From Aureispira anguillae (GTDB lineage: Bacteria > Bacteroidota > Bacteroidia > Chitinophagales > Saprospiraceae), in NCBI RefSeq assembly GCF_026000115.1, contig NZ_AP026867.1:2585716-2649715 (forward strand): a DNA stretch of 64,000 nucleotides, given 5' to 3'. Both the position numbers and the translations under genes were made by a program. Under the pieces are notes generated by a model. It was given only the letters and a program-made list of their open reading frames with translations, was not told the origin of the DNA and ran no database searches. This document shows, in pieces, positions 6,841 to 64,000 of this stretch (position 1 is its first letter; each line of letters starts with the position of its first letter).

Positions 6841-6950
6841 CTTTCCTTATCCCTGTGTCCACCCTACCCAGCGCATCATTCACCAACTTATTAAAAGGGT
6901 GCAAATAAATCATCGTTGCTTCAATCTTAGAATGCTGTAGAATCACCTAA
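6841..6950 (-). pseudogene. tyrosine recombinase 3'-end remnant (copy C), abutting first attC-like site
   Basis: gtgcaaataaatcatcgttgcttcaatcttagaatgctgtag parallels copy B; the translation ends as in copy A. Confidence 0.5.
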
Positions 6951-7011
6951 GGTGTGTATATAGTTATTTATAGCACTTGTATATGTAATTGTGTATACAA
7001 GTAAGTTGTGC
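6948..7011 (+). other. attC-like (or attI-like) site at start of cassette array
   Basis: cctaagGTGTGTATATAG ... gtgtatacaag ... GTTGTGC resembles the attC consensus aacaaaGTGTATAT ... catatacac ... GTTRRRY. Confidence 0.35.
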
Positions 7012-7098
7012 TTCATTGAAACTTTAGTTTTAAGAAAATTTAAATTGTGAATCTCATTTATTAATTTAACGTAGATACTTAAAATCTAAAGTAACATT

Positions 7099-10000
7099 AT
7101 GGAATCCCAAAGCAAATCTTTCGCATCTCCTTCTGAATTTTACAAGCTTAAAAGACCAGAATTTTTCTCTGACTCAAAGATTATCTATGAAGTCCAATTA
7201 ACAAAAGAACATCTAGCGTTAGAATTAGATCAAATCACTATCAATCAAAAGCAAGATGAATTTGAAACATTGTGTAGAAAATTAGCAGAAAAATTAATTG
7301 CTCCGAACTTAATCCCACAAGTTGGTCCTACTGGTGGAGGGGATGGTAAAACTGATTTCGAAACTCATCCCGTATCTCATCAAATTTCAGATAGATGGTT
7401 TGTAACTCAAGAGGGATGGAAAGAAACTGAAAAGTGGGCATTCGCAATTAGCGCAAAAAAAACATGGAAGTCCAAAGCTAAATCAGATATCATAAATATC
7501 TTAAGTACTAAACGTCCATACACTCATATTTTTTTCATGACAAATCAAAAACCGTCAAGTAAAAAAAAGAAAGAAGCTCAAGATTCATTTAAAGAAGAAT
7601 ATGGAATAGAGGTCACCATTCTTGATGGGGTCTGGATAATTGAAAAAATACTACAACATAACTTTATTGATTTGGTAGTAGATGCACTCAATTTATCTAA
7701 AGTTTATAAAGAAAAAAAAGTAATATTAGGTGCTAATGATGACTTAAGAGAAAAACAATTACGTGAATTAGAAGAAAAAATTTCAACTCCTAATAGATAC
7801 TTTGAATATGATTTTCAACGTGTAGAAGATGCGATTGAAGCTGCAATCATATCAAGAATGCTTGAAAAGCCAAGAGATGAAATTGAGGGAAAATTTCTAA
7901 GAGCAAAACGTTTTTGTAAAAAACTAAACAATCCTAAACAATGGCAAAGAATATATTATCAAAGGGCGTGGACATATATTCATTGGTTTGATGATTATGA
8001 AGCTTTCATTGAAGATTATAAACAATTTAAAAAACATATTTCCCTTGCTTGTAATATTTCAAGTATGGAATTATTCTTCAATTTTATAAGCCTTCTAAGA
8101 GGCTTAGAAGTTTCTGATGTTTGCAACTTAAATGAGTTAGGTATCTCATTCAAAGAGGAAAAAGCTGAATTCTTAGAATCTCTATCTAAATTCAACGATA
8201 CAAATAAAATTCCTTGTTCAACAGCGATTGCTCATACTTATAAAAATATCCAAAAATTAATTGATGCAAAAGTAGACGAATCCTCTATATACATAAAAGA
8301 GCTCTCTGAAGTATTAGTACAAGGTTCAAAATATTTAGATTATCCATTTGAGTATTTTACCGATATTTTCACCCTAATTGGCAATATTTTCCCAAATAAT
8401 GAAGAATTTGACAACTTAACAGATATCATAGCACAAATTACTTCAAAACGGCAATCAGACTTAGCAAGTGGAGAAGTTTTTTTAAATCGTGGACTTCAAA
8501 AAATTGAAGCTGAGTTGTTTAAAGAAAGTGTAGTTTTCTTTGGCAAAACCATTGTAAAACTAGCAAAAAAAGAAAGTAACGACTTAATGTATTTTGCTCT
8601 AAGAGGACTAGCAGAAGCTTATTATAGATTGGGTTTACTTTGGGCTGCGAATAACTGCCTTACAGCTTCTCTTTCTTTATCATTCAAATCGTGGTATGAA
8701 AAAGGAGTCATTCATAAAAGGGTATATGATTGTATAACTGCTTTAGCAAAGAATGAGTTAATAATTGGAAGAATTCCTTCTTATTTTTCGTGGCACGAAA
8801 ATCTACAAATTATTAGGAGAGAAATAAATCTTGATGAAATTCCAGCTGAAAAGTCCCCTTATAATATCCTAGACGTTTTTCTTGCAATAAAGCTATTAAA
8901 TACAAGTAATTCAGAAAACAAGTATTTAGCCAGAATCCCAAATCTTTTGGATGAAAAACATTTGTGGTTATCTCAAGATGCTTGTTTATACAAACTCGGT
9001 TATCTGGAAAGGATTAAAGAGAATTTCAAATCGGCAGGAATTAAAGATATGAAACAAATCGATGACTATTTCAGAAATTTAGCTACACAACCTGCTCAGA
9101 AAGAATTATTAAACCCAACGAATTTTCTTGGCGATGAAATCATTTATCTATCATCAATTATTTTAGGTTGTGAATTCAAGATTAAATGCATAAATGATAA
9201 AAGTCTAATTATAACTGTTGAAGCTTTCTTAGCATACTTTGAAACTTTTTTAGCTACTTCTTTAAAAAATGTTGTCCCAGCAACAGAGGAAATCTATCTT
9301 CATTTCAAACGAAATGAAGATTGCGAAATATTAACTTTTTCAAACAAAAACAAATCGAATGAGTATGATATTGAAATAGGGCATGCTACCTTTTCAATGG
9401 AAAATAGAAGTAAGTTATGGGAATTAATGATCAACTTAATATCCGATATACTTGGGCGAAATTTCTTTTTCGATGAAATTGAGAAATATCTTAAAAATCT
9501 CTTTCAAAAAGAAGAAATTTCAGAAAGACTGTCTATTGTGTTTGAGCATATTACATTCACTTATAACACATTAGGAGAGTCCCCTAAAATTCTATTAAAA
9601 GACTGGATTGACATTGAAAAAACAGAAAACTATTCTAATAAAAGAAGTACTCCACTAAATTATAAAACTGACCAAAACAACTCATCTTCAGAGCTTAATA
9701 ACCAAACACTTAATAATTATGGTCATAATAAAAGAAAAGCATATTCATTAATTGACGTCCCTCTTTGGGATGAAGCGGGTTGGATTTCTTTTGGTATTTT
9801 TCAGTATCAAAAGGGTATTGGAATTGCTCTAGGATTTAAAGACGCTAATTATGGAAAAAAGATATTTGATGGATGGATTAATAAAATGGGAACAACTGAT
9901 AAAGAAGAAATTATCAAAATATGTATCATCAAAGGTGTAAATAAGGCTCACCCTCATTGGTATAAAGTTTTAATCACATCTAACATGGTAAAAATGAATC

Positions 10001-10320: not shown

Positions 10321-10327
10321 AAACGAA

Positions 10328-10525
10328 GCACAACAAAGTGTATATTTCCATGACAGATTTCGGGAACAATCTTACAAGAATGAACGCATGAATTACACCG
10401 CAAAATCTGCGATTTTGCCACTAGTCGTAAAACAATTTACTGGCAAAATCGCAGATTTTGCTCAGGGAACAGCTATATTTATATTCGCATGACGCCTGTC
10501 ACGGAATATACACGGGCCGTTGTCC
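10328..10525 (+). other. attC-like site (long class)
   Basis: inverse core GCACAAC 8 bp after the stop; core GTTGTCC (reverse complement GGACAAC); internal palindrome caaaatctgcgattttgcc...ggcaaaatcgcagattttg. Confidence 0.6.
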
Positions 10526-12692: not shown

Positions 12693-12752
12693 GTACAACA
12701 ATGTATTGTATCGCACACTAATCTAGCACAATCATATATAATAACGTTGCCA
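12693..12752 (+). other. attC-like site (short class, about 60 bp)
   Basis: GTACAACAATGTA ... taaCGTTGCCAat; closes the four-gene cassette 10553-12685. Confidence 0.5.
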
Positions 12753-13876: not shown

Positions 13877-13947
13877 CGGTAGCCAACAAAGTGTAAAATG
13901 TTCATGCTGGCTATGTGCCAGCACGCCATTTACACGAGACCGTTACC
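13877..13947 (+). other. attC-like site (short class)
   Basis: ggtaGCCAACAAAGTGTAAaatgttcatgctggctatgtgccagc...acacgagacCGTTACCCat; internal hairpin gctggc/gccagc. Confidence 0.55.
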
Positions 13948-14039
13948 CATCATAAAAAATCATTCATTACTACAAAAACAATATTTTTTTTTGTAATTTA
14001 TACTTTCATGGTTACCTAATCCACCTAAACAAACTGCTT

Positions 14040-16945: not shown

Positions 16946-17207
16946 TAAAACGGTAGGTAACAATATGCCAATTCCATAAAGTTAAGAGCAAAAGCTGGTC
17001 TGTAATTTGCAGAAAATCTGTTTCTAAAGCTGTCACATTTCAGGCAGGAACAATTTTAGAAGGTGCATACCAAATTTGCTATCTATAGGGATAGCACATT
17101 CCTTAGCTCTAAAATCACATATTTTCTTCCGTATCAGTGTAGGCATCCCAAGAGAAGCAACCGTTAGTTAAGAGAAAAAATATTATATTAGATAAAAACT
17201 AACGAAA

Positions 17208-17501
17208 ATGAAGAGGAGTAAATTTAGCACAGCTCAAAAAGCAAAGATATTAGCAGAGCATGACGGCGGAAAAAGTGTAACGGATTTATGCCGTCAATAC
17301 CAAATTAGTGCAGCTACGTTGTATAAATGGAAAAAGGACTATGAAGATAGTCAAGATGAAGATAAACGAAGAATAAAGGAATTAGAGGCAGAAAATGTTC
17401 GTTTAAAAAAGATGTATGCTAATTTAAGTATCGATCATGAGATACTTCAAGAAGGTTATGCAATGGTAAAAAAGTTCCAAGCCCAAAAGAACAAGAAATG
17501 A
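17208..17501 (+). CDS. IS3-family transposase OrfA (HTH, leucine zipper)
   Basis: MKRSKFSTAQKAKILAEHDGGKSVTDLCRQYQISAATLYKWKK. Confidence 0.9.
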   Translation: MKRSKFSTAQKAKILAEHDGGKSVTDLCRQYQISAATLYKWKKDYEDSQDEDKRRIKELEAENVRLKKMYANLSIDHEILQEGYAMVKKFQAQKNKK

Positions 17502-18334
17502 TATTGGATTGCTTGTCAAAAGAATACAGCATTCGTCGTACTTGTGTTGTTTTGGGCTTACGCCGTCAGACATATTATAGTCGTAAATCAGGTCATCGCC
17601 CAGAAGAAAAGGATGAAGAAATAGTGGATTTACTACATCAGTTAACAAAACGTTTTGTATCATGGGGCTTTTGGAAAATTTATCACTATTTGAGAAATCA
17701 AGGCTATGCCTATAATCATAAGAGAATTTATCGTATATGGTGTATAGAGGGTTTAAATTTACGTTTACCGCCCAAACGCAAGAGGATTTATCGAAAATAT
17801 CAACAACTTTTGGCTCCTAAAGAAGTCAACAAAGGTTGGGCTATGGATTTTCTAAGTGATTGGGTTGTTAGCCCAACTAATCATCGTATACGAATTATCA
17901 ATATTATGGATGAAGGTTCTCGCCGAGCCTTATGGACAGAAGCTCATCATAATATTTCAGCTAAAAAGCTAATAGAGGTTTTGGAGAAAGTGATAGAATA
18001 TCGTGGAAAACCATCTTATATTCGTTGTGACAATGGTCCTGAGTTTATTTCAGAAAAGCTCAAATTGTGGGCAAATAAACATGATATTGAATTGAAATTC
18101 ATCCAACCAGGAAAGCCATCTCAGAATGGTTTGATTGAGCGTTTGAATAAAACATTGAGAGCCGAATGTTTGAACTTATGCTGGTTTCAATCTCTAGAAG
18201 AATTAAATGAAGAAATACAGGTTTGGAGTCAGATTTATAATCTAGAACGACCTCATAAGAACTTAGGTAATATTACCCCAGATTCTTTTGAGATTCTAAA
18301 TCAGAAACTCTACTTTTTAGCGGTTGCTGCTTAG
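17498..18334 (+). CDS. IS3-family transposase OrfB (DDE integrase core)
   Basis: rve-domain motifs WAMDF...D, CDNGPEF, KPSQNGLIERLNKTLRAE. Confidence 0.9.
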   Translation: MILDCLSKEYSIRRTCVVLGLRRQTYYSRKSGHRPEEKDEEIVDLLHQLTKRFVSWGFWKIYHYLRNQGYAYNHKRIYRIWCIEGLNLRLPPKRKRIYRKYQQLLAPKEVNKGWAMDFLSDWVVSPTNHRIRIINIMDEGSRRALWTEAHHNISAKKLIEVLEKVIEYRGKPSYIRCDNGPEFISEKLKLWANKHDIELKFIQPGKPSQNGLIERLNKTLRAECLNLCWFQSLEELNEEIQVWSQIYNLERPHKNLGNITPDSFEILNQKLYFLAVAA

Positions 18335-18560
18335 GGGAAGCCTACATCAGGCACTCGAATTCCAGTTCCATCAATCGCCAATAGTCGGTATCCTTTCCAA
18401 TATTTTATTCCTCGATTGCTTCGATAAAAAAGTTGGCAACTATAAGAAAATAAGTCTTCAAAAAAACAAACCTTAATCTTTGAACGAGCTAAGGCTAATG
18501 CTGTCTTTGTTGGTGGGCACCTTGATCTAAATAGTCTTGAGTGGGAGATTAATTCGGCGT

Positions 18561-18755
18561 TTACACTTTTTTTAAAAGACCTAATATCAATCCTACCGTT
18601 GTTGCAAAATCTAATTTGCGATGTCTTGTAAAATCTTGTTCTGGGCGAATCAAATAGGTCGCCCGTTTTTGGGCTGTTAAACTCGCCAAAATTATAAATA
18701 ATTTTAGCTTCTTTAATTGTGCTGTTAAGCTTAGTAGTTTTTTGTCACGTTTCAT
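18561..18755 (-). pseudogene. N-terminal fragment of IS4/IS5-superfamily transposase
   Basis: 64-aa ORF near-identical to 31565..31759. Confidence 0.6.
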
Positions 18756-19095
18756 CCCCTAAATATATGTTTTTTCTGACTACTTTCCTTAACTTTATGG
18801 CAGTGAACAAGAAATATACGTCAATCCCACATCTTGGGCTAAAGCTAAAGTTCATTCGTATGTAACACTACGCAAAATCGCAGATTTTGCTAGTACTCGA
18901 AGAAAAAATTACTAGCAAAATCTGCGATTTTGCTTTGGGATTAGCTATATTCCTATTCGTATAACTTGTGGCACTGCGTATATCAAGACGTTGTCATCAA
19001 TTCAAAGAAAAATCATTACGCAAATACACTGCGCAGCAACTTTTTAACTTTGAGTCTCAGTAAAAAATCTAATCTAGGACTTAAAAATAAAAACT

Positions 19096-20079: not shown

Positions 20080-20272
20080 TAACAACAATCTGCATATAGC
20101 CATCCAGAGCACTCTGTAACGCCCAATTCAGGGGCTTTGTCCAAGCGCAAAATCGCAGATTTTGCCAGTACTCTGAACGAAATTTACTGCCAAAATCTAC
20201 GATTTTGCTTATCTGTAACGCACACTTTTCGTATTTTGCTCTTTCTGCACGGTATATGCAGTAACGTTGGCA
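20078..20272 (+). other. attC-like site (long class)
   Basis: GATAACAACAATCTG ... gcaaaatcgcagattttgcc ... ggcaaaatctacgattttgc ... acGTTGGCAtcaat. Confidence 0.6.
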
Positions 20273-22699: not shown

Positions 22700-22767
22700 T
22701 GCCAACAAAGGCTAAAATGTCAATAGCCTCCATCCGTCGGCTACTGCATTTAGCCGGGCCGTTAGGT
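22700..22767 (+). other. attC-like site (short class)
   Basis: TGCCAACAAAGGCtaaaatgtcaatagcc...ggctactgcatttagccgggcCGTTAGGTggcat; core GTTAGGT, reverse complement ACCTAAC. Confidence 0.55.
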
Positions 22768-24825: not shown

Positions 24826-24830
24826 CGCCA

Positions 24831-25024
24831 CTTAACAAGAAATATACGTCAATCCCACATCTTGGGCTAAAGCTAAAGTTCATTCGTATGTAACACTACG
24901 CAAAATCGCAGATTTTGCTAGTACTCGAAGAAAAAATTACTAGCAAAATCTGCGATTTTGCTTTGGGATTAGCTATATTCCTATTCGTATAACTTGTGGC
25001 ACTGCGTATATCAAGACGTTATAG
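24831..25024 (+). other. attC-like site (long class)
   Basis: CTTAACAAgaaatatacg...gcaaaatcgcagattttgctagtactcgaagaaaaaattactagcaaaatctgcgattttgc...gcgtatatcaagacGTTATAG; near-identical to 18811-18996. Confidence 0.65.
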
Positions 25025-25052: not shown

Positions 25053-25829
25053 ATGGACGAATTCAATAGAACAGAGGTATTCTACTCAATAGTTAACAAT
25101 GACTATGATAAATTTATGAAAGAGCTTGAATTCTTGACAGATATAAATATGGTTGATATAAACGGAATGTCTTTACTCCATTTCTGTGGTGAATATTCAA
25201 ACCTAAAATTTGCTAAAAATCTAATTGAAAAAGGTATCAACGTTGACCTAAAAGATAATTATGGGAATAATGCTTTATGGAAAGCTACATTTAATTCAAG
25301 AGGAAATTATGAATTGGTCGAATTACTAATTGAAAATGAATCTAACCCAAATTCTAAAAATAATGCCAATAAATCACCATTGGACTTAGCACTTAGTTTT
25401 GGAGACGAAAGACTAATCGGATTGCTTAGCGAACCAGAATATAAATACCATGCAGACTGGGAACAATTGGCTGATTTGTTCAATTACAAAATAGACCGAC
25501 ACGACCAAGATTGGACTTATACAATTTCAGAACCTGAAAGAATCGAGGATTACCTAGATGCTTATACAAATATTGAGAATATAGAAGCAAAATATTCTCT
25601 ACTTGAAATGATAATTCAATCCGTTAATGACCAAACTGACAAAGAATTTGATAAGTATTGGAATCGATTAGTTCCATTTCTTGATATTGATTTCGAATTA
25701 AACAAACCAACTATCTATTATTGGTGTGATTGGATGAATGATAATCTGGAAAACTGTTTCGAGGTTAGTGATAAGATGAGAAAATATTGGATTAGTAAAA
25801 TAAAAGAAAAATGCTATAACAATGTATAA
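25053..25829 (+). CDS. ankyrin-repeat protein
   Basis: start taken as MDEF; ANK repeats GMSLLHFCGEYSNLKFAKNLIEKGINVDLKDNYGNNALWKA. Confidence 0.7.
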   Translation: MDEFNRTEVFYSIVNNDYDKFMKELEFLTDINMVDINGMSLLHFCGEYSNLKFAKNLIEKGINVDLKDNYGNNALWKATFNSRGNYELVELLIENESNPNSKNNANKSPLDLALSFGDERLIGLLSEPEYKYHADWEQLADLFNYKIDRHDQDWTYTISEPERIEDYLDAYTNIENIEAKYSLLEMIIQSVNDQTDKEFDKYWNRLVPFLDIDFELNKPTIYYWCDWMNDNLENCFEVSDKMRKYWISKIKEKCYNNV

Positions 25830-25881
25830 CAAATCACAGCCGCCTATCGGCAGGCTACGCTTGTTATACGAGCCGTTGGCG
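25815..25881 (+). other. attC-like site (short class)
   Basis: stop codon inside ATAACAATGTATAA; ...cagccgcctatcggcaggctacg...agcCGTTGGCGgtcatt. Confidence 0.5.
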
Positions 25882-26933: not shown

Positions 26934-27131
26934 CGCCAACAATGTGTAACATATGACCATTCTAGGTGTAGGGCTAAAGCTAAAGTCTCGGCGTATGTGA
27001 GACGCCGCAAAATCGTAGATTTTGCTAGTAGCTTGAAGCCAGATTACTAGCAAAGTCTACGATTTTGCTTTGGGATTGGCTATATTCAGTACGCATAGCC
27101 TCTAGCACAGGCATATACACTAGACGTTAGG
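26934..27131 (+). other. attC-like site (long class; near-canonical cores)
   Basis: CGCCAACAATGTGTAacatatg...cgcaaaatcgtagattttgctagt...actagcaaagtctacgattttgc...gcatatacactagacGTTAGGCacaat. Confidence 0.7.
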
Positions 27132-27221
27132 CACAATTTTAAAATCTCTGGCTCAAGATTCAAGAAGTTCTTAGGAAATCAATATATTACTTATCATTAT
27201 ATTTCTTACTAAATCGAAAAA

Positions 27222-28134: not shown

Positions 28135-28920
28135 ATGTTAAGAATAGAAAAAACTCAACTAAATATTAGTGCTTTAATCACAATGTCTTCTGGATTAAAA
28201 AAGCTTCAATCTAACACAATTACAGAAATGATGGATAAAGGAGAAAAAGCAGGACAAGTGATAATTACTAGAGAAAAAAGGGAAAATGAAAAAACAGATC
28301 TGCAATTAAGCCTAGAGTTACTAAATAAACTTTTTTTTAGTCTTGTTGGAGGTCCTCCTAGCCCACTTATTCTAAGTGGCGATGAAGAAAGATATCTCAG
28401 AAATTGTTCTTATGCTTATTACTACTATAAGACTGAAGAAGCCGAAATTTCTCCCCTAGATGTTTTTGGTGTATTTCACAAAACGCATTTCAACACACCA
28501 CCGCCAAATGAGTTACATAAAGAATTTCCAAAGATGCTTTTATCCACTTTCGGTCTAAATCCCGAATTATCTCAAGCATTCAATAAATACCAACAAACAT
28601 CACCAATTGCCTTACCCTCTCCAAAGTCTTTTAATCATGTATTTCAAACACTAAAGACTGAATTCGTCAATAATGAAATAAAATTAGTATTGGAAGCAAC
28701 CAATCTTGAAATGACGAAAAGTATAGACTCCTTATTTGCATTAAAAGATTTGTTATTTTGTTGTGAGTTTGATACAAGTTCAATTCTTGAACATCATGAA
28801 TTTTCAAAAATAAGTGGACAAAAAGACACATATAACTGGGGTGCTAAAAATGGGATAAAGCCATCTATAGAGTTTGATTACGATTACCTGAAAGTAGATG
28901 TAACAAAAAACTGTGCCTAA
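28135..28920 (+). CDS. hypothetical protein (261 aa), co-cassette with PLD-like gene
   Basis: ORF immediately followed by attC inverse core. Confidence 0.4.
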   Translation: MLRIEKTQLNISALITMSSGLKKLQSNTITEMMDKGEKAGQVIITREKRENEKTDLQLSLELLNKLFFSLVGGPPSPLILSGDEERYLRNCSYAYYYYKTEEAEISPLDVFGVFHKTHFNTPPPNELHKEFPKMLLSTFGLNPELSQAFNKYQQTSPIALPSPKSFNHVFQTLKTEFVNNEIKLVLEATNLEMTKSIDSLFALKDLLFCCEFDTSSILEHHEFSKISGQKDTYNWGAKNGIKPSIEFDYDYLKVDVTKNCA

Positions 28921-29135
28921 CAATCTGTCAATTCCATAAAGTTAAGAGCAAAAGCTGGTCTGTAATTTGCGGAAAATCTGTTTCTAAAGCTGTCACATTT
29001 CAGGCAGGAACAATTTTAGAAGGTGCATACCAAATTTGCTATCTATAGGGACAGCATATTCCTGAGCTCTAAAATTACATTTCTTTTTAGAGCTTGATTA
29101 TTAATTGTATTCCAATGCTTTATAAGCTACCTATA

Positions 29136-30105
29136 CTAAAAGGCTGGCTTGTAGTTTTTTTCTGTCATATACCGTTCATTCAATCTCATTTGCTTGCGTG
29201 TTCTTTTTGTTGGTGGTCGTATTCGGACGCTTTCATAATAGCGTTTTATTAGGTTAATCGCAGCTTTAACATATACTCCTTGATGCTCTGAAAGCAACAA
29301 ATCAAACCAATCTTTTTTCACTATAGTAATTGCTATATTTCTATTTATTTGACCCTTCAGTTTTTGTCCATTCAATTCTTTTTCTGCTACATGAATAAAC
29401 ATCGAGCGAATATTGTAAAAGATCAACACCGACCATAAATCCTGTAAAACAAATTGGGCTTTGTAACCTGAAAATACACCTAATTTTAGTTGATTTTTAA
29501 GCTCATCAAAAGCTGTTTCCTCTCCCCACCTTTTAGAATATAAATCTTTAAATTCTTCTCTGCTAAACTTATTCTTATCCAATAAATTCGTTGCTAAAAC
29601 CTCGGTTGTTCCATTCGGTAATTCTACTCGAAGTAACCTTATTTTGAAGGTTGAAAATTTTGGATGCTTATTTTTTAAGCCATACTTATCTCTTGCTGAA
29701 TAATAAGCTCTTTCACCTAACCGAAATTCTACTATGCTATCAGTATCTCCACTTTTTAAAAAATTTTCTACTGCTTTTATTCCCTTTATTTTCATTCTTA
29801 TCAAGCAGGGCTTTCTCGATTTTAAGTGGCGGTCTAATAGTAAACTATCGCAATAATGGCGATCATAGATCATGATTGAGTTGCTAGGAAGAATTTCAAA
29901 TTTTTGATGAAGGGCAACCAACTCTGCTACTGATCTTGGATGTAAATGCACATGATAGAATACTCGATTCAATACATCATGTATCGCTAATATCTTGCAG
30001 GCTGCTATTGCTCCATATTGGTTCTTGTGAACACCTATTAAGCATCTATTTTCTTCCGTATCAGGCACTCGAATTCCAATTCCATCAATCGCCAATAGTT
30101 GGTAT
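29136..30105 (-). pseudogene. IS4/IS5-superfamily DDE transposase, 5' part severed by IS3-B insertion
   Basis: the N-terminal MGYTS residues of the tracked ORF come from the IS3-B terminus; DDE_Tnp_1 YREK signature present. Confidence 0.65.
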
Positions 30106-30141
30106 TGAGGTATTGAGGTGTACCCCATTTATAGGACCAGT

Positions 30142-31050: not shown

Positions 31051-31055
31051 GGGCT

Positions 31056-37276: not shown

Positions 37277-37283
37277 ACCAGCC

Positions 37284-38430: not shown

Positions 38431-38437
38431 AACGACT

Positions 38438-40152: not shown

Positions 40153-40220
40153 GCACACACAAAGGCTAAAATGTTCATAGCGGCTATGCGCCGCTACGCC
40201 ATTTAGCCAGACCGTTCTGC
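40153..40220 (+). other. attC-like site (short class) closing an ORF-less cassette
   Basis: gcacacacaaaggctaaaatgttcatagcggctatgcgccgctacgccatttagccagacCGTTCTGCat; paralogous to sites at 13877 and 22700. Confidence 0.55.
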
Positions 40221-42276: not shown

Positions 42277-42429
42277 GTCATAACAATGTCTATAATCCAT
42301 GCTAGATTTTCGTCGGATGCTCTACAACTCGTGGCATGACTAACACTGCAAAATCTGTGATTTTGCTCAATTGCAACACCATTATTTCGTATTTTACTCT
42401 TCCATACATTATATACAATAATGTTGTCA
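42277..42429 (+). other. attC-like site
   Basis: GTCATAACAATGTCTATAATCCATGC ... ctgcaaaatctgtgattttgc ... tacaataatGTTGTCAacaat. Confidence 0.5.
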
Positions 42430-45825: not shown

Positions 45826-46104
45826 GTGATTATGAAGAAAAGAAAATTCACAGCAAAGTTCAAAACAGAAGTAGTATTAGAGGCTCTAAAAGAGCAATCT
45901 ACTTTATCAGAGTTAGCTCAAAAATATGAGCTTGCACCAACACAAATTCGTACTTGGAAGAAACAATTTTTGGAAGGAGCAGAAGACATATTTGAAAAAC
46001 CAACTTCTAAGCAGACCGAGGAGGAGAAGGAAAAAGACAAACTTTTACAGACTATAGGTAAGCTAAAAGTCGAGAATGACTTTTTAAAAAAAGTGTTGAA
46101 ATAA
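45826..46104 (+). CDS. IS3-family transposase OrfA
   Basis: identical to 31056..31334. Confidence 0.9.
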   Translation: MIMKKRKFTAKFKTEVVLEALKEQSTLSELAQKYELAPTQIRTWKKQFLEGAEDIFEKPTSKQTEEEKEKDKLLQTIGKLKVENDFLKKVLK

Positions 46105-46109
46105 AGCCC

Positions 46110-47018
46110 TTGTCCGAGAAACGTCAACATATTAATTCTAATCACCCAATTTTGAGTGTTCGCCGTCAATGCAAGTTGATAGGTATTCATCGCTCTGGTA
46201 TTTATTATCAACCAAAAGAAGAGAGCGAATTAAATATGGAGTTGATGCGATTAATGGATGAACATTACCTAAAGCATCCCTATAAAGGAGCTCGTGCCAT
46301 GCATTTATGGTTGACGGCGGATAAAGGTTTTAAGGTGAATCGAAAGCGTATTAATCGATTGTATTATTCTGTAATGGGCTTGCGATCCATTTTACCAGGA
46401 CCACAGACGTCAAAACCAGGAAAAGGAGAAGACCATCAAGTTTTTCCTTATCTACTGAGAGGCTTAAAAATAGAACGACCTAACCAAGTCTGGGCAATGG
46501 ATATTACTTATATTCCTATGCCAAAGGGTTTTCTATATTTAACTGCTGTCATTGACCTTTATAGTCGATTTGTAGTGTCTTGGTCAATATCGAATACGAT
46601 GGATGCCCTATGGTGCAAAAATACATTAGAAGAAGGGATAGAAAGATATGGGAAGCCAGAGATTTTGAATACGGATCAAGGAAGTCAATTTACATCAAAA
46701 GAATTTGTCAAATGTGTTACCAAAGATTATGGAATTAAATTTAGCATGGATGGAAAAGGGCGCTGTATCGATAATGTGTTTATTGAACGATTATGGTGGT
46801 CTGTGAAATACGAAGATGCTTATATTCGAGAGTATTTGGATGGAAGTGCATTGCATACAGGAATGAAAAAGTATTTTAACAAATATAACTGGGAAAGAAG
46901 ACACATGGGGATTGACGATGAACGTCCTTGTGACCGATATTCCCCTTCCAAAACCTCCCAAAATTTCTGTGAGGAGATTTTGGAAGAAAAATATCTAATA
47001 AATTTAAAATCAGCTTAA
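46110..47018 (+). CDS. IS3-family transposase OrfB
   Basis: identical to 30142..31050. Confidence 0.9.
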   Translation: MSEKRQHINSNHPILSVRRQCKLIGIHRSGIYYQPKEESELNMELMRLMDEHYLKHPYKGARAMHLWLTADKGFKVNRKRINRLYYSVMGLRSILPGPQTSKPGKGEDHQVFPYLLRGLKIERPNQVWAMDITYIPMPKGFLYLTAVIDLYSRFVVSWSISNTMDALWCKNTLEEGIERYGKPEILNTDQGSQFTSKEFVKCVTKDYGIKFSMDGKGRCIDNVFIERLWWSVKYEDAYIREYLDGSALHTGMKKYFNKYNWERRHMGIDDERPCDRYSPSKTSQNFCEEILEEKYLINLKSA

Positions 47019-52267: not shown

Positions 52268-52523
52268 GTTTAATATTGAAGGTGTTTAAAATATTATTAA
52301 AACTTGTACTTCAACCGTAGCATTTCTAGAATCTTTAGCTATTTTTAGTCCCATAATTCCATGCATGAAACAAAAAATAAGCTTTGCTCAAAACACTACT
52401 ATCATTTTATTAATGCTAATTATAAAAAAGGATACAGTTTGATTTTTATGAAACCTTTTTTAGATATAAGACACTCAAGAGTTCGAAAAGTGAATAGATG
52501 CTCCATCAATAAAATTGTCAACT

Positions 52524-52650
52524 GATAACAATAGGTTGATGGTGATAGAGATCATTTTTTGACGAAAACGCCTAAGCTGTAAAATACATGATTTTGCTTG
52601 AGTTTTGAGCTAAATTTCGTACTTTACTTCTTCTCCACTCCATATGTGCA
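52524..52650 (+). other. degenerate attC-like site
   Basis: GATAACAATAGG ... gctgtaaaatacatgattttgc ... catatgtgcaaccatt; core not recognisable. Confidence 0.25.
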
Positions 52651-52696
52651 ACCATTAATCGCCAATTAATATATATAAACCTTGTAAGAAATCTCC

Positions 52697-53374: not shown

Positions 53375-53389
53375 ACCGACGACAACAAC

Positions 53390-53704
53390 GTATCAATTTC
53401 ATCAAATTAAGAGCAAAAGCTGGGCTATAATTTGTAAAAAATCTATTTTTAAAGATATTACATTTTAGGTAGGAACACTTTTAAAAGGAGCATACTAAAT
53501 TTGCTATCTATAGGGACAGCACATTCCTTATCTCTAAAATTACATTCTTATCAAGCAAGGTTTCCTCGATTTTAAGTGGCGGTCTAATAGCAAGCTATCG
53601 CAATAAGGGCCATCATCGTTAAACTCAGTAGTTTTTTGTCACGTTTCACACTCTAAACATATGTTTTTTTTGACTATTCTTCTTAACTTTATGGCAGTGA
53701 ACAA
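53390..53704 (-). mobile_element. IS4/IS5-superfamily element, diverged deletion derivative (315 bp)
   Basis: left end atcaatttcatcaaattaagagcaaaagctggg, an internal piece matching the transposase region at 29806-29880, and right end cttaactttatggcagtgaacaa. Confidence 0.5.
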
Positions 53705-53839
53705 TCTGTATGTCTAAACTTCGTGGCATGACCAACGCTGTAAAATCATAAATTTTGTTTGGAGACAGAGCCAATTAGATTCAGTGCATGGCCTTTTGCA
53801 CAGTTTATATATCTGCAAGCAGAACAAAACGAAAATAAT

Positions 53840-54622: not shown

Positions 54623-54894
54623 TAATGACTTAAGTGATAAAAAAACCTTCCTATAATCGTTTTCCTCCATTGCTTCTTCCAACATCGTATGCATTAGCGT
54701 TATGATAAAAAAGGAAATTCTGATAAAAAAAAGGAATTTTAAATTGATAAAGAAAAAAGGCGTAGAGGGTAGAATTTCCGTTGGTATATTCCTTATTGGC
54801 AAAAAAGGAAAATGAATAAGTGCTCTGTATAAGTATATCACAAAACGAAAATGTAGCATTATTTTTTCAAATAATTCTAAGGAAAAGAAATAAT

Positions 54895-55066
54895 GCAGCA
54901 AAGTGTACAATTTATATCGTTACTCCATGGATACATATTACAAAATCATAGATTTTGCTGCTGGTTTGAAAACAAGTTTACCATCAAAATCTATGATTTT
55001 GCTCAAGGAAAAACTATATTTAAACTGCATATGGTCTACACTCAGTCTATACACGAATCGTTGTAA
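54895..55066 (+). other. attC-like site (long class)
   Basis: GCAGCAAAGTGTACAA ... cAAAATCATAGATTTTGctgctgg ... catCAAAATCTATGATTTTGctc ... tatacacgaatcGTTGTAAat. Confidence 0.5.
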
Positions 55067-55166: not shown

Positions 55167-55511
55167 ATGAATAATTCAGAACTCATATTAGTTAAGGCAA
55201 GACTGAAGATGCGGACATCAAACGATGGAGGACGTAAAACTGGGTTTTTATCTGGATTGAGACCTAATCATGTTTTTGAGTATTATGACGATGGATTTTT
55301 AAGGACCTACATTGGTGATATTCAATTTGAAGGGCAAGAACTAATCATGCCTGGAGAGGAAAAGGAAGTGCTTGTTCGATTCCTTGATCATCCATCCATT
55401 CATGTATATCTTCAGATTGGTCGAAAGTGGTGGATACATGAAGGTGCTAGATGTACAGGTGAAGCAGAAATATTAGAAATAAAATTACCTACAACAATAA
55501 CTAAAAAATAA
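55167..55511 (+). CDS. stand-alone EF-Tu domain 3-like (GTP_EFTU_D3 beta-barrel) protein
   Basis: GGRKTGFLSGLRPNHVFEYYDDG ... IMPGEEKEVLVRFLDHP ... IHEGARCTGEAEILEI aligns with EF-Tu domain III [24 protein letters not shown] ... VMPGDNIKMVVTLIHP ... IREGGRTVGAGVVAKV. Confidence 0.5.
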   Translation: MNNSELILVKARLKMRTSNDGGRKTGFLSGLRPNHVFEYYDDGFLRTYIGDIQFEGQELIMPGEEKEVLVRFLDHPSIHVYLQIGRKWWIHEGARCTGEAEILEIKLPTTITKK

Positions 55512-55585
55512 TAGCTACCCTGTAGAACGGCAGTGTTTTTTAACCGAAACATTAGAGAGCTTTATAAATCTCAAAACTAAACCTA

Positions 55586-58200: not shown

Positions 58201-58406
58201 GTTGAAAGGATTATAGGATTAGATTCAATTAATTACCTAGTACAACCTCATTACCATCAAAATAATTCTAATTTATTGTTTTTATCGGTAAAAAAGTAGT
58301 GCTTTAATCCTATTCTAACCTTAAAACAAACAGGTTTATTAACAATGTAGCACATCCGCTACCGTTAGACTCCATCAACCACTACTCAAAAGAAATGCAC
58401 TAAAAA

Positions 58407-58800: not shown

Positions 58801-58894
58801 GCACAACAAAGTGCTCACTATAAGTATGAACGAAGTGAACGATGTAAACTTGCAGTCAAAGCTACAGGGGCAAAGTATTTAGACAAAGTTGCAC
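58801..58894 (+). other. attC-like site
   Basis: GCACAACAAAGTGCtcactataagtatgaacgaagtgaacgatg ... caaaGTTGCACatt; head identical to that at 10328. Confidence 0.4.
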
Positions 58895-59086
58895 ATTTTA
58901 TAATCTTCTTTTTTCTTTCGATTAATATATGCTATAAGTACCAACAAAATGAAAAACTAATTGGTCGAAAACGACCTCACCAAGTACTCCATAAGAAAAC
59001 TCCTTATCAGGTTTGTCAAGATTTTCAAAGAGCTTTATTTAACCTTAAGCTAAGTTGGTAATACAATAGTAATGATGTTATAGCTA

Positions 59087-59281
59087 ATGAAAATTCTAAT
59101 AAACATATCGATACTTTTCTTTTGCATCTCTTGCAAAAAGATTAAAACTTATGAAGAAATAGATAGTTTTAGCCTAATTACTATTGAAAACCATGGAGAT
59201 GTTCAACGCAAATCTTACTATACTGAGTTTAAATTTAAAAATGATACATTTTCCATATTGCGAACCTCTCCTCTTTTCTAA
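59087..59281 (+). CDS. small lipoprotein
   Basis: lipobox FFCISCKK. Confidence 0.35.
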   Translation: MKILINISILFFCISCKKIKTYEEIDSFSLITIENHGDVQRKSYYTEFKFKNDTFSILRTSPLF

Positions 59282-59528
59282 CTCTTTCTAGTTTAAAAAA
59301 ATCAGAATTCTACAAAAATCAACGTATTAGTAATTGGGGAGTTTTAAATTCAATAATTAGATTCTGTGCATGACTTTTCGCACGCCTTTATTCACTCACG
59401 TTGTACGCAATTAACACCAACACCTTCCAAAATGTATAAACCTTATACAAAAATGTTTAAGTGTAAAGACTAACAGATGAAGTAATTTTGTATTAAAATA
59501 ATTTAACAACGCTTAAAACAGATAGAAT

Positions 59529-62237: not shown

Positions 62238-62636
62238 ATGAAAAATCAAATGATTAGATCGCTAACGTTTCAAGATGGAAATGCAGAAAATGCAATGAAT
62301 TTTTATGTGGAGTTGTTCGATAATTCTAAAATCATTAAGGTAAGCCGTTGGGGAAAAGGTGCGCCTACTGCTGAGGGAAAAATTATGCAAGCCACATTCG
62401 AATTGGACGGCAATTTATTTATGTGTAGTGATAGCCCTCCAATTCACGATTGGAGTTTTACCCCAGCCGTTTCTAACTACTTAGAGTGTGACAATGAACG
62501 TGAGATTGAAAGATTATTTTCGAAATTATCTGAAAACGGAAAAGTGATGATGGCATTAGATAATTATGGTTTCAGTCAAAAATTTGGATTTATTCAAGAC
62601 CAATTTGGGGTTTCTTGGCAATTGAACTTACATTAA
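62238..62636 (+). CDS. PhnB-like / VOC-superfamily (3-demethylubiquinone-9 3-methyltransferase domain) protein
   Basis: AENAMNFYVELF ... ATFELDGNLFMCSD ... FGFIQDQFGVSWQL pattern typical of PF06983. Confidence 0.55.
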   Translation: MKNQMIRSLTFQDGNAENAMNFYVELFDNSKIIKVSRWGKGAPTAEGKIMQATFELDGNLFMCSDSPPIHDWSFTPAVSNYLECDNEREIERLFSKLSENGKVMMALDNYGFSQKFGFIQDQFGVSWQLNLH

Positions 62637-62896
62637 GGGTGCCCGTTTTTTATGATGTAGGTGTTCCTATTATATTTAGACCTATAAGCCAATTTTTTTC
62701 AAGTTTTAATTAATTGGTCATGCTAGATTTTGGAAGAAATTTTGTGTTAAAACTTTTTCCTGAGTTTGCAAAAGCTGCGACTTAACTTTGATAAACAGCG
62801 AATTAAATAAGCACACATCCATTTCTCCTTGTACAGCATTCCCTATATAACCTTAGGTGTTAAGTGTGATAAGGGTTTTAGATTAAAAACATCACT

Positions 62897-63598
62897 ATGT
62901 ATTTCAAATGTACAAAACATGGAACTCAAGGATTTCAAGAAATGTGTTCTCATCTGTTCAAAAAAATAAAGGACTTAGAATATCCTAAAATCTACACTCT
63001 GCCTATTTGGGATCTAAAAGTTTGTAAAGATTGCTACGAAAAACATGCAATTCATAAACTGGAAGATTTAAAAGATCTATTTTTTTGCGACTTACCTGAA
63101 ATGGAAGTAAGCCAAGCTATAAAAATTGAAAAAAGGACCTACCCTATTTATGAAAAAATTGATCGACAAATTTACTGTCTGGAATGTATTAATGAAGCTA
63201 GGTTACACCAAGCACGAAAAGATGGAAATAAAGAACCTTTTACTCCTTATGAAAAGACTTTAATCTACAAAGACAAACCTAAGATTGATGAACTTAAGGC
63301 TTTACTTAAATCCAAGTTTACATTTAAAAAAGTATGGGTTGATGAATTGGGTTTAGAGTTAAGTTCATGCCTTATTGTCCCAGGTTCAATTAGCTATCCT
63401 CTAAAAGTTATTATCCACCATATTGAAGATCAGTATACCCAAAATAGAATACTAGATACTATAGATAGCTTCCTAAAAAGCAAAAAACTTAAGCAAAGAG
63501 TTGTATTCTTTTACAAAGAATATGTCTTTGAAAGCGGAAATAATGCTTTTCAAAAAGGGAAAGAAGTTTTATTGAGAAAGGAAGAATATCTCGATTAA
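62897..63598 (+). CDS. hypothetical Cys-rich protein (233 aa)
   Basis: CxxH ... CxxC ... CxxC spacing suggests a zinc-binding module. Confidence 0.4.
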   Translation: MYFKCTKHGTQGFQEMCSHLFKKIKDLEYPKIYTLPIWDLKVCKDCYEKHAIHKLEDLKDLFFCDLPEMEVSQAIKIEKRTYPIYEKIDRQIYCLECINEARLHQARKDGNKEPFTPYEKTLIYKDKPKIDELKALLKSKFTFKKVWVDELGLELSSCLIVPGSISYPLKVIIHHIEDQYTQNRILDTIDSFLKSKKLKQRVVFFYKEYVFESGNNAFQKGKEVLLRKEEYLD

Positions 63599-64000
63599 AA
63601 ATAGTAAACACAGAAATTATGGAAACATACCTGTAAAAATACGCATATGCGAGCCCATTTCAAAATCTGCAATCTTGTTTTGAGAATAACTACATTTATT
63701 AGGGTGTGGCTTTGCGCACAAAGTATATGCTAATGTTATCGTTAATCACCCCACCCAACAACCAGTGCATAATTTTAGAAATGGTTCATGTTTTAAGTTG
63801 TTCTAAACTCATTTCTCAATGCTTTGAGTCAAATTCGGAAGACGTTTGGAAGAATCTATCCGCAAAAATTGCAAATTTTGCTATATTAGTTGGCGTAAAT
63901 GAATGGCTTCGCCCTTCTCCTACAATCTGTATATACACATTATCAGTAATTCCCCCCAATTATGAATGAAAAAAAAGTACAATTTTCACTAACAGCAGAA

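What the first reader, a model, noticed from the sequence alone, without database searches (positions are those of the whole stretch)
6948..64000. More than 55 kb integron-like gene-cassette array with no integrase in the window
At least 25 ORF modules, almost all on the + strand, are each followed by a site with attC architecture. An inverse core RYYYAAC-like sequence overlaps or abuts the stop codon (GCCTAACAATC, GCCAACAATGTGTAA, GCTAACAACATGTATAA). The site ends in GTTRRRY (GTTAGGC three times, plus GTTAGGT, GTTAGCT, GTTGTCC, GTTGGCA). The two cores covary as reverse complements within a site (GCACAAC/GTTGTCC, GCCTAAC/GTTAGCT). Lengths are 60-200 bp with imperfect internal dyad symmetry. 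The canonical aadA attC begins GCCTAACAATTCG and ends GTTAGAT, so the similarity is direct. Multi-gene cassettes, ORF-less cassettes, cassette-borne regulators and defense and hydrolase cargo all fit a sedentary chromosomal integron or a CALIN. Integrons of this size are rarely described in Bacteroidetes.
Basis: partly seen in the sequence, partly recalled or inferred. Interest (0 to 1): 0.85.

Follow-up and report, generated by a model that had tools for sequence, protein, structure and literature searches.

The report
Integron-type gene-cassette array in Aureispira
This stretch of an Aureispira (marine Bacteroidota) chromosome is a real integron-style array of mobile gene cassettes more than 65 kb long. 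It has no integron integrase next to it, which makes it a large new example of a known kind of element in a phylum where few have been described.

Summary
From about 6.9 kb to the window end, co-oriented ORF modules are followed by attC-like sites. About 20 sites are confident and about 7 are weak. The array is clean up to 43.5 kb and decayed beyond.

The sites come in two forms: a ~195-nt long form (12 copies, all on the + strand) and a ~67-nt short form. AAC/GTT is invariant. The L box and a 23-bp central stem show compensatory changes across 57 unique sites from the window and marine metagenomes.

The cores do not covary within a site. Each site's R'' is complementary to the R' of the preceding site (5.4/7 against 2.2/7 by chance, p<1e-5). 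This is the classic signature of circular cassettes inserted at G|TT. Metagenome arrays (6.1/7) and a class 1 integron control show the same rule.

No IntI is present. Two tyrosine-recombinase remnants at the left edge belong to an arm-binding integrative-element family, not IntI. By definition this is a large CALIN, or an integron remnant. Its cargo includes defence and hydrolase genes, and it is parasitised by an attC-targeting IS4-family element.

The cognate recombinase is unknown. I could not scan the whole genome. It is a new member of a known kind.

The parts
5944..6114 (-). Remnant A: 3' end (aa ~334-390 and on to the stop near 5913) of an arm-binding tyrosine integrase. Not IntI.
   Evidence: 77% identical to the intact L147 integrase. 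Full-length relatives score 42-55 bits on TIGR02249, cut-off 265.
6857..6943 (-). Remnant B: last ~30-60 codons of a second copy of the same integrase family. It is cut at ~6948 and fused to the first site of the array.
   Evidence: (repeat family D15, 82% nt identity to A).
6945..7011 (+). Proximal site of the array. It contains the 30-nt block TGTATATGTAATTGTGTATACAAGtaaGTT (6978-7007). Its GTT flank GTGCTTC is the exact complement of the R'' of the next site.
   Evidence: the block is an exact match to the degenerate 24-nt search pattern in metagenome contig L147 and is recognisable in L195.
10328..10525 (+). attC, long form (198 nt). It closes cassette 1 (1073-aa ORF at 7099-10320).
   Evidence: (154.9 bits).
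12693..12752 (+). attC, short and weakly paired (60 nt). It closes a 4-gene cassette (cNMP-binding, START and others).
   Evidence: The bottom-strand fold is not better than shuffles.
13881..13948 (+). attC, short form (68 nt).
   Evidence: 77.1 bits; z -3.6, one extrahelical T in the L'' arm.
16955..18996 (+). attC split by IS4-family copy a. Left part 16955-16968, IS 16969-18805, right part 18806-18996. The IS itself carries an IS3-family element with ORFs at 17208-18334.
20080..20272 (+). attC, long form (193 nt). It closes the cassette with the 327-aa ORF.
   Evidence: 151 bits.
22700..22767 (+). attC, short form. It closes a 3-gene cassette (SDR dehydrogenase, DUF4345, AraC regulator).
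   Evidence: (75.8 bits). R'' TGATGCC matches the previous R' 7/7.
24830..25024 (+). attC, long form. 99-100% identical to the copy at 18806-18996. It closes the calpain-like peptidase cassette.
   Evidence: (repeat family D3).
25814..25881 (+). attC, short form. It closes the ankyrin-repeat cassette.
   Evidence: (73.8 bits).
26934..27132 (+). attC, long form (199 nt). Its R'' GACCGCC matches the previous R' 7/7 (10/10 over the wider flank).
   Evidence: 167.7 bits.
28915..31958 (+). attC split by IS4-family copy b. Left part 28915-28928, IS 28929-31809, right part 31810-31958. The IS has its transposase at 29136-30128 (-) and is interrupted by an IS3-family element at 30142-31334 (-).
   Evidence: (NF033592 120.7 bits, cut-off 115).
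34454..34519 (+). attC, short form. It closes the defence cassette (GmrSD-type enzyme at 31986-33719 and a methyl-directed restriction enzyme at 33770-34315).
   Evidence: (63.3 bits).
35912..36692 (+). attC split by MITE-like IS4-family copy c. Left part 35912-35925, IS 35926-36500, right part 36501-36692.
   Evidence: (160.6 bits).
37283..37412 (+). attC, intermediate length (130 nt). It closes the 166-aa ORF cassette.
38437..38628 (+). attC, long form, with R' degenerated to ATT. It closes the LRR-protein cassette. R'' GACTGAT matches the previous R' 7/7.
   Evidence: (147.5 bits).
40153..40220 (+). attC, short form, with the AAC degenerated to CAC.
   Evidence: (76.2 bits).
42279..42429 (+). 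attC, long form with a single central module (151 nt). It is the last site of the clean part of the array.
   Evidence: 72.3 bits.
45826..47018 (+). IS3-family element (ORFs of 92 and 302 aa). The transposase gives the same Pfam scores as the one at 30142-31050 (-).
52523..52661 (+). Degenerate long-form attC (R' reads ATTAATC).
   Evidence: 59.9 bits.
53380..53764 (+). attC split by degenerate IS4-family copy d. Left part 53380-53393, IS ~53394-53699, partial right part 53700-53764.
54894..55066 (+). attC, long form (173 nt).
   Evidence: 98.3 bits.
55486..55560 (+). Weak short-form attC (R' reads ATT).
   Evidence: 17.9 bits, E 0.013.
58337..58370 (+). Miniature attC-like site (34 nt). Weak.
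58801..59406 (+). R''-L'' half at 58801 and L'-R' half ending at 59406 (15.8 bits), 600 nt apart. This is a disrupted site or an ORF-less cassette.
63660..63746 (+). 3' two-fifths of a long-form attC. The array continues past the window end.
   Evidence: 21.8 bits. Searches show + strand genes for at least 10 kb more and another partial attC near +72.5 kb.

Best explanation
The region is an integron-type gene-cassette array on the chromosome of Aureispira anguillae or a very close relative. It now has no adjacent integron integrase, so it is a CALIN or a decapitated sedentary chromosomal integron.

Each cassette is one to five + strand ORFs followed by an attC site. As single-stranded DNA, the attC folds into:
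- an R box with invariant AAC/GTT;
- a short unpaired spacer;
- a 9-11 bp L box;
- a variable stem-loop, which in the ~195-nt form is a 23-bp stem.

Cassettes were inserted and rearranged as circles by a tyrosine recombinase that cuts at G|TT of the R' core. That is why the bases after each GTT belong to the next cassette and pair with that cassette's own R''.

Shown here: the site architecture, structural covariation, strand bias, the boundary rule, spread of the attC family in marine metagenomes with different cassettes, and absence of IntI from the window and the next 10 kb.

Inferred: the enzyme is an IntI-type integrase encoded elsewhere or lost, and the array is mostly silent cargo (restriction enzymes, hydrolases, regulators, surface proteins). 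The array has since been invaded by attC-seeking mobile elements and has decayed distally.
For: - Organism: remnant A matches (98% over 97% of my slightly longer query) an NCBI protein of Aureispira anguillae on a 7.58-Mb contig.
- Sites.
- Boundary rule in the window: 5.4/7 complementary to the preceding site, against 2.2/7 for the null and for same-site pairs. None of 100,000 permutations reached the observed value. Individual 7/7 to 10/10 matches are.
- Same rule elsewhere: 23 consecutive attC pairs from independent marine metagenome contigs give 6.1/7, against 2.8 by chance and a maximum of 3.8 in 5000 permutations. Class 1 integron controls also obey it.
- Structure, from 57 unique long-form sites: AAC/GTT invariant in 55-56. 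The L box is 92.5% paired, with compensatory changes at 8 of 9 pairs, against 10-62% paired in slid controls. The central stem is 94% paired with 92 compensatory cells.
- Bottom-strand folds of the short sites show an L box plus stem-loop, with z-scores of -1.7 to -3.6 and a single extrahelical T in the L'' arm in 3 of 5.
- The spacer geometry of the long form (5/6 when counted as in class 1 attCs) matches canonical sites.
- Cargo is typical of chromosomal integrons.
- Literature: integrons are rare in Bacteroidetes genomes (PMC9024848), and no paper in the library links Aureispira with integrons.
Against: - No integron integrase was found in the window, in the 10 kb downstream (L123), or in any of 63 metagenome contigs with this attC family.
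- The proximal end, where intI and attI should sit, carries a different recombinase remnant.
- The curated attC covariance model could not be run.
- The reciprocal test is weak. My short-form model ranks the catB3 attC first on a class 1 integron, with exact boundaries, but only at 11.3 bits and E 0.19.
- Extrahelical bases are less regular than in canonical attC.
- Many cassettes are multi-gene and large.
- The distal 20 kb has few recognisable sites.
Confidence: 0.85

Rival explanations
1. It is a cassette system like an integron, but its recombinase is not IntI. On this reading, the Aureispira-expanded 387-aa arm-binding tyrosine integrase family (the source of remnants A and B) inserts the cassettes, and the 30-nt block at 6978-7007 is its attI.
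For: - Remnant B is fused to the block.
- The same block lies at the proximal edge of the array in L147 and is recognisable in L195. In all three loci the 7 nt after its GTT pair with the R'' of the first attC: 7/7, 9/9 and 6/7.
- L147 and L195 appear to be the same locus in two strains. The left flank is homologous and the integrases are about 89% identical. Yet they hold different cassettes between the block and an intact integrase gene whose terminator starts right after a GTT, 45-47 nt from the stop.
- L191, whose integrase is 59% identical, also has a degenerate long attC 45 nt past its stop.
- No IntI was seen at any array end.
Against: - The family lacks the IntI-specific signature: 42-55 bits against a cut-off of 265.
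- It carries an arm-binding domain typical of integrative-element integrases.
- Other members sit beside tRNA fragments or housekeeping genes with excisionase-like genes and no attC.
- A. anguillae has at least 5 intact paralogues, as expected for several integrative elements.
- The gene is convergent with and distal to the cassettes, unlike any integron.
- Hairpin covariation points to single-strand substrates, which are known only for IntI.
- A simpler reading is that these elements, like the IS4-family IS here, use the G|TT of attC as their attachment site.
Confidence: 0.1
2. The window is the inner part of a complete sedentary chromosomal integron whose intI lies just outside the window.
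For: The array runs off the right end and continues for at least 10 kb. Only +/-10 kb could be inspected.
Against: - attC orientation places attI and intI on the left.
- The left edge lies inside the window, at 5.7-7.0 kb. It is followed by ordinary genes (a Fib_succ_major protein, an MBL hydrolase, an AraC regulator) with no intI.
- The contig available to the left is short and shows none.
Confidence: 0.04
3. The repeats are an ordinary intergenic palindromic repeat or MITE family (REP/BIME-like) unrelated to cassette recombination.
For: - The central 23-bp palindromic module also occurs alone in other genomes: loci L138, L142, L158 and L188 match profile positions 44-141 only.
- The pattern is short enough to hit many unrelated genomes by chance.
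Against: - REP or MITE families do not explain flanks that pair with the preceding copy.
- They do not explain the strict single-strand orientation or the placement at ORF 3' ends.
- The identity of two copies ends at the AAC and GTT triplets.
Confidence: 0.01

Closest known systems
CALIN (cluster of attC sites lacking an integron integrase; Cury et al. 2016, IntegronFinder 2.0, PMC9024848)
   Same: Co-oriented attC sites less than 4 kb apart, each following promoterless ORFs, with no intI nearby. Read in the literature as a degraded integron.
   Different: It is far larger: about 20-27 sites over more than 65 kb, against a mean of about 6 attC per CALIN. It is in Saprospiria, and the attC family is new.
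Sedentary chromosomal integrons of Vibrio and Xanthomonas (VCR/XCR arrays)
   Same: Chromosomal and tens of kilobases long. The attC family is homogeneous and long. Cargo is mostly of unknown function, with defence and toxin-like genes. IS elements sit within the array. Each cassette's R'' pairs with the preceding R'.
   Different: No intI or attI at the proximal end. Two attC length classes are mixed (about 67 and 195 nt). Many cassettes hold several genes. The host phylum is different.
Class 1 integron cassettes (aacA4, catB3, blaVIM, dfrA1 attC sites)
   Same: RYYYAAC...GTTRRRY ends, a purine-C before the GTT, 5/6-nt spacers, L-box pairing and the cassette-boundary rule.
   Different: No sequence similarity beyond the cores. 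My short-form model gives only 11.3 bits on the catB3 attC. Extrahelical bases are less regular. A second AAC/ATT triplet lies 10 nt outside each core.
attC-targeting parasites: IS1111-attC elements and group IIC-attC introns
   Same: Mobile elements inserted at a fixed position and in a fixed orientation inside attC sites. The control loci L193 and L205 carry such an intron.
   Different: The element here is an IS4-family DDE transposon inserted at AACAATnTGT between R'' and L''. It is not an IS110-family element or an intron.

Membership tests
Integron gene cassettes / attC sites | Inverse core RYYYAAC and core GTTRRRY at the two ends, with conserved AAC and GTT | tested here: met
   AAC and GTT are invariant in 55-56 of 57 unique long-form sites. 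They are present in all short-form sites except a few degenerate ones.
Integron gene cassettes / attC sites | L''/L' pairing maintained by compensatory change, despite little sequence conservation between sites | tested here: met
   92.5% paired, with 8 of 9 pairs showing double changes, against 10-62% paired in slid controls. Same-site duplex energy beats cross-site pairings, p<5e-5.
Integron gene cassettes / attC sites | Each cassette's R'' is complementary to the core bases at the cassette's own start, which are carried by the preceding site (crossover at G|TT) | tested here: met
   Window: 5.4/7 against 2.2/7, p<1e-5. Metagenome arrays: 6.1/7 against 2.8. Class 1 controls obey the same rule.
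Integron gene cassettes / attC sites | Extrahelical bases on the '' arm of the folded bottom strand | tested here: inconclusive
   Three of five short sites have one extrahelical T in the L'' arm. By eye, the long form has one extra base between the L box and the next helix. No regular G/T pair like that of aadA7 was seen.
Integron gene cassettes / attC sites | Variable-length central stem-loop, 57-141 nt in mobile integrons and longer in chromosomal ones | tested here: met
   Lengths are 34-199 nt. The long form has a covarying 23-bp stem.
Integron gene cassettes / attC sites | Sites co-oriented, clustered, and placed at the 3' ends of mostly promoterless ORFs on the same strand | tested here: met
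   All 13 long-form hits are on the + strand. R'' lies within 0-12 nt of the stop, or overlaps it, for most cassettes.
Integron gene cassettes / attC sites | Match to the curated attC covariance model used by IntegronFinder | not testable with these tools
   The model is not in Rfam, where the window gave 0 hits at the gathering threshold. A substitute from 8 class 1 attC sites was judged too narrow and was not built. The reciprocal test gave a top-ranked but non-significant hit.
Complete integron | An intI gene (tyrosine recombinase with the IntI-specific extra domain) next to the array | tested here: not met
   No IntI-like ORF is in the window or in the fetched flanks. The remnants belong to a family that scores 42-55 bits against the TIGR02249 cut-off of 265.
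Complete integron | An attI site and Pc promoter between intI and the first cassette | tested here: inconclusive
   The proximal site at 6945-7011 behaved as the recombination partner of the first cassette. Its 30-nt block recurs at another array edge. However, it adjoins a non-IntI remnant. Promoters were not examined.
CALIN | At least 2 attC sites within 4 kb of each other and no intI within 4 kb | tested here: met
   About 20 confident sites are present, and no intI lies in 64 kb plus 10 kb downstream.
Sedentary chromosomal integron | More than 10 attC sites of a homogeneous family on a chromosome, together with a resident intI | tested here: inconclusive
   The size and homogeneity criteria are met. 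The chromosome is inferred from the 7.58-Mb contig.
REP/MITE-type intergenic repeats | Copies scattered in both orientations, with flanks unrelated to neighbouring copies | tested here: not met
   The copies have a single orientation, and their flanks pair with the preceding copy.

The most novel reading that the evidence does not exclude
The arrays of this attC family may not be serviced by an IntI at all. Instead, the recombinase could be the Aureispira-specific 387-aa arm-binding tyrosine integrase family whose remnants border this array. Its attachment site would be the direct-repeat block TGTATATGYAATTGTGTATAYAAGnnnG|TT followed by the integrase terminator, and it would serve as the cassette insertion site. 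That would be an independently evolved integron analogue in Bacteroidota. A weaker version of the idea is that integrative elements of this family use the G|TT of attC as their chromosomal attachment site, which would make them a new class of attC-targeting element.
Probability: 0.1. Interest if true: 0.9.

Novelty: new member of a known kind. Interest (0 to 1): 0.5.

Why it matters
Integrons are well studied in Proteobacteria but barely documented in Bacteroidota. IntegronFinder 2.0 reported a single complete integron in Bacteroidetes (PMC9024848).

This array matters for several reasons:
- It is more than 65 kb long.
- Its attC family is new, about 195 nt long, and widespread in marine metagenomes with different cassettes.
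- It therefore shows that cassette capture operates in marine Saprospiria and stores defence and hydrolase genes there.
- It gives a clean set of about 60 sites for extending attC models to this phylum.
- It raises a testable question: which recombinase moves these cassettes? None of the array edges seen here has an intI, and all of them adjoin a different integrase family.

Tried and rejected
- A generic AAC...GTT duplex scan gave as many hits in shuffled sequence as in the window. A loose regex scan was uninformative.
- Rfam has no attC family and gave 0 hits.
- The short-form covariance model R1 cannot reach the 150-200-nt sites. It found almost nothing in related loci.
With only 16 specified bases and a palindromic shape, it returned 120 chance hits in unrelated genomes. 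As a result, the Aureispira genomes could not be scanned for intI.
- A search with IntI1 returned only class 1 and proteobacterial integrases.
- The viral-contig scan was empty.
- Look-ups of window proteins found only short Logan contigs of the same strain. The NCBI record could not be reached.
- I considered that remnants A and B were a decayed IntI, because of the motifs ELVQKYS and DALD. I rejected this on family scores and domain architecture.
- I considered building a covariance model from canonical class 1 attC sites and harvested 8 of them. I dropped it because the L-box registers differ with the extrahelical bases and the set is too narrow to give a fair test.
- There are no tRNA genes and no relevant tandem repeats in the window.

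Full report
**Source and layout.**
The window has about 31% G+C throughout. A 64-aa tyrosine-recombinase fragment encoded at 5.9-6.1 kb matches an NCBI protein of Aureispira anguillae that lies on a 7.58-Mb contig; the match is 98% over 97% of my slightly longer query. Window proteins also occur on Logan contigs of run DRR408736 and, at 99.3% DNA identity, of SRR35212565-7. The window is therefore chromosomal DNA of A. anguillae or a very close relative (Bacteroidota, Saprospiria). The first 5.6 kb hold ordinary genes: an AraC regulator, an MBL-fold hydrolase and a Fib_succ_major protein. From about 7 kb onward, nearly all ORFs are on the + strand.

Within 0-12 nt of a stop codon, or overlapping it, a site begins RYYYAAC-AAW-GTGTAWA. 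It ends TATACAC-n4-6-(C)GTTRRRY. There are two length classes.
- Long form, about 195 nt. A profile built from ten copies finds 11 near-full and 2 partial copies, all on the + strand. The only - strand hits are to the palindromic centre.
- Short form, 66-68 nt. A covariance model of five such sites scores them at 63-77 bits.

Position matrices of the two ends give 16-17 hits at >=12 bits on the + strand, 1 on the - strand and 1.4-1.8 in shuffles. They also pick up sites that were not used for training.

I count about 20 confident sites and about 7 weak ones. They are dense and clean from 6.9 to 43.5 kb. Beyond that they are sparse and degenerate, among IS elements and several - strand genes. 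A generic AAC...GTT hairpin scan does not beat shuffles, so the signal lies in the family-specific features.

**The decisive test: whose core pairs with whose.**
They do not.
- For 17 ordered sites, the 7 nt 5' of the AAC match the complement of the 7 nt 3' of the same site's GTT at 2.2/7. This is exactly the background level (p=0.70).
- They match the complement of the flank of the preceding site's GTT at 5.4/7. None of 100,000 permutations reached this.
- Runs of 7/7 to 10/10 occur, for example GTTGGCGGTC followed later by GACCGCCAAC, and GTTATCAGTC followed by GACTGATAAC.

This is the textbook consequence of cassettes being inserted as circles by a crossover at G|TT. The bases after the GTT belong to the next cassette and pair with that cassette's own R''. 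Class 1 integron controls fetched here obey the same rule, and I could walk their arrays with it. Two long-form copies (18806-18996 and 24830-25024) are 99-100% identical between their AAC and GTT triplets and diverge immediately outside them.

**Independent replication.**
A 30-base pattern from the centre of the long form found 63 metagenome contigs. About 40 of these, mostly marine and 30-32% G+C, carry full-length copies at 70-147 bits. The copies lie 0.6-2.8 kb apart on one strand, between unrelated ORFs. In 23 consecutive pairs the preceding-site rule holds at 6.1/7, against 2.8 by chance (maximum 3.8 in 5000 permutations) and 2.6/7 within a site. The family is thus a widespread, recently active cassette system and not a peculiarity of one genome.

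**Structure.**
I analysed 57 unique near-full-length long-form sites from the window and metagenomes.
- AAC and GTT are invariant.
- The 9-bp L box is 92.5% paired, with double compensatory changes at 8 of 9 pairs. Controls with the partner slid by 1-3 columns give 10-62% paired.
- A 23-bp central stem is 94% paired, with 92 compensatory cells.

In the window, L''/L' duplexes are site-specific: -6.8 against -3.2 kcal/mol, p<5e-5. Bottom-strand folds of the short sites give an L box plus a stem-loop, with z-scores of -1.7 to -3.6. In three of five, a single extrahelical T sits in the L'' arm. One short site (12693) does not fold better than shuffles. Counted as in class 1 sites, the spacers of the long form are 5 and 6 nt, as in blaVIM or aacA4 attC. 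A purine-C precedes the GTT in both.

The family differs from canonical sites in four ways:
- There is no sequence similarity beyond the cores.
- The extrahelical bases are less regular.
- The spacer is more asymmetric in the short form.
- A second AAC lies 10 nt upstream of R'', mirrored by ATT 10 nt downstream of R'.

My short-form model ranks the catB3 attC first on a class 1 integron, with exact boundaries and strand, but at only 11.3 bits and E 0.19. The curated attC model could not be run.

**Cargo.**
Cassettes hold one to five ORFs. Identified products are:
- a GmrSD-type enzyme together with a methyl-directed restriction enzyme in one cassette;
- a PLD-like nuclease;
- a class-C-like beta-lactamase-fold protein and an MBL-fold lactonase-like protein, both far below the resistance-gene cut-offs;
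- alpha/beta hydrolases;
- an SDR dehydrogenase with an AraC regulator;
- cNMP-binding, START, LRR, ankyrin, calpain-like, TonB_C and VWA/T9SS-tail proteins;
- many ORFs with no family.

This profile is typical of chromosomal integrons.

**Integrase.**
A six-frame search with IntI1 (my recalled sequence proved 100% identical to a database cluster) finds nothing IntI-like in three places: the window, the 10 kb downstream, and the metagenome loci.

Two fragments on the - strand, A (5944-6114) and B (6857-6943), are the 3' ends of tyrosine recombinases. Their full-length relatives are about 387 aa with Arm-DNA-bind_5, Phage_int_SAM_5 and Phage_integrase domains. These relatives score 42-55 bits on the integron-integrase model, against a cut-off of 265, and match it only over the catalytic C-terminus. 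The family is expanded in Aureispira, with at least 5 intact paralogues on the A. anguillae chromosome. Several members sit beside tRNA fragments or housekeeping genes, with excisionase-like HTH_17 genes and no attC. They are therefore integrative-element integrases.

The orientation of the attC sites puts attI and intI on the left, and nothing of that kind is there. By IntegronFinder's definitions the region is a CALIN, and a very large one. I could not scan the rest of the genome, because the single genome scan was wasted on a pattern that was too short.

**An unresolved association.**
Remnant B is fused to the first site of the array. That site contains a 30-nt block of direct repeats, TGTATATGYAATTGTGTATAYAAGnnnGTT.
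- The same block lies at the proximal edge of the array in metagenome contig L147 and is recognisable in L195. Each time it is preceded by a decayed integrase 3' end.
- Each time its GTT flank pairs with the R'' of the first cassette: 7/7, 9/9 and 6/7.
- L147 and L195 look like one locus in two strains. The left flank is homologous and the integrases are about 89% identical. They hold different cassettes between the block and an intact integrase whose terminator begins right after a GTT, 45-47 nt from its stop.
- L191 shows a degenerate long attC in the same position.

The conventional reading is that these integrative elements, and miniature derivatives of them, use the G|TT of attC as their attachment site, much as the IS element described below does. 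The unconventional reading is that this integrase family is the cassette recombinase. The evidence available cannot separate the two. I give the unconventional reading about 10%.

**Other invaders.**
An IS4-family element sits inside attC sites four times, always in the same orientation and always at AACAATnTGT between R'' and L''. Its transposase at 29136-30128 scores 120.7 bits on NF033592, against a cut-off of 115. One copy carries the transposase and is itself interrupted by an IS3-family element. One copy is interrupted by a different IS3. Two copies are MITE-like. The flanking 10-mers match 9/10 only for the copy with the transposase, which suggests recombination between copies. A third IS3 copy lies at 45.8-47.0 kb.

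**Comparison and novelty.**
In mechanism and architecture this is an integron cassette array. It passes the tests for cores, L-box covariation, the boundary rule, orientation and clustering. It fails the 'complete integron' test because there is no intI.

Integrons are recorded for Bacteroidota at phylum level (PMC8618304). They are rare in complete genomes: IntegronFinder 2.0 names one complete integron in Bacteroidetes, in Salinibacter ruber. No paper in the library links Aureispira or Saprospiraceae arrays with integrons. I rate it a new member of a known kind, of moderate interest. It comes with one open question that can be tested directly: which recombinase moves these cassettes?

Noticed in passing
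window 16969-18805, 28929-31809, 35926-36500, ~53394-53699: An IS4-family element with ends CAATTCCATAAAGTTAAGAG...CTTAACTTTATGGCAGTG is inserted four times inside attC sites. The position (AACAATnTGT, between R'' and L'') and the orientation are the same each time. Only copy b keeps a transposase; the others are MITE-like or disrupted. It looks like an attC-targeting IS of a family other than IS1111.
   Followed up: partly
window 5944-6114 and 6857-6943 (- strand); L147, L195, L191: There are two decayed 3' ends of an Aureispira-expanded arm-binding integrase at the array's left edge. Intact homologues lie 45-47 nt beyond an attC R' end in independent contigs. L147 and L195 share their flanks but hold different cassettes.
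   Followed up: partly
window 6978-7007; L147 ~5643-5666 (- strand); L195 ~6673-6696 (- strand): The direct-repeat block TGTATATGYAATTGTGTATAYAAGnnnGTT is conserved at the proximal edge of otherwise different arrays. It could be attI-like, or it could be the arm-site end of an integrative element.
   Followed up: partly
window, all clean attC sites (e.g. 10325-10337, 26931-26943; 10519-10535): The cores are extended. A second AAC lies 10 nt upstream of R'' (AAC-G-N6-AAC), and ATT-AAA lies 10 nt downstream of R' (GTT-N6-C-ATT). Class 1 attC sites do not show this.
   Followed up: no
L138, L142, L158, L188 (metagenome contigs, 38-43% G+C): Only the central palindromic module of the long attC (profile positions 44-141) occurs in these other genomes, without the R and L boxes. 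The long form may have arisen when a separate palindromic repeat was inserted into a short attC.
   Followed up: no
window 18806-18996 and 24830-25024: Two attC copies are 99-100% identical between their AAC and GTT triplets, yet they follow different cassettes. This suggests recent duplication or exchange.
   Followed up: partly
window 17208-18334 (+), 30142-31334 (-), 45826-47018 (+): There are three IS3-family elements. The last two encode transposases with identical Pfam scores and lie in opposite orientation, about 15 kb apart. That arrangement could drive inversions.
   Followed up: no
The ORF at 6186-6770 may be a cassette caught between the two integrase remnants. If so, the array's true left edge may be near 5.7 kb.
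   Followed up: no
window 31986-34315: One cassette carries a GmrSD-type (type IV) restriction enzyme together with a methyl-directed type II restriction enzyme (PADLOC E-values 1e-46 and 1e-62).
   Followed up: yes
window 3380-3560 and 49230-49330: There are unusually G+C-rich intergenic stretches with repeated units such as TTAGTT(C/A)CCTNNGGTCATGAG. I saw them by eye; Tandem Repeats Finder did not report them.
   Followed up: no
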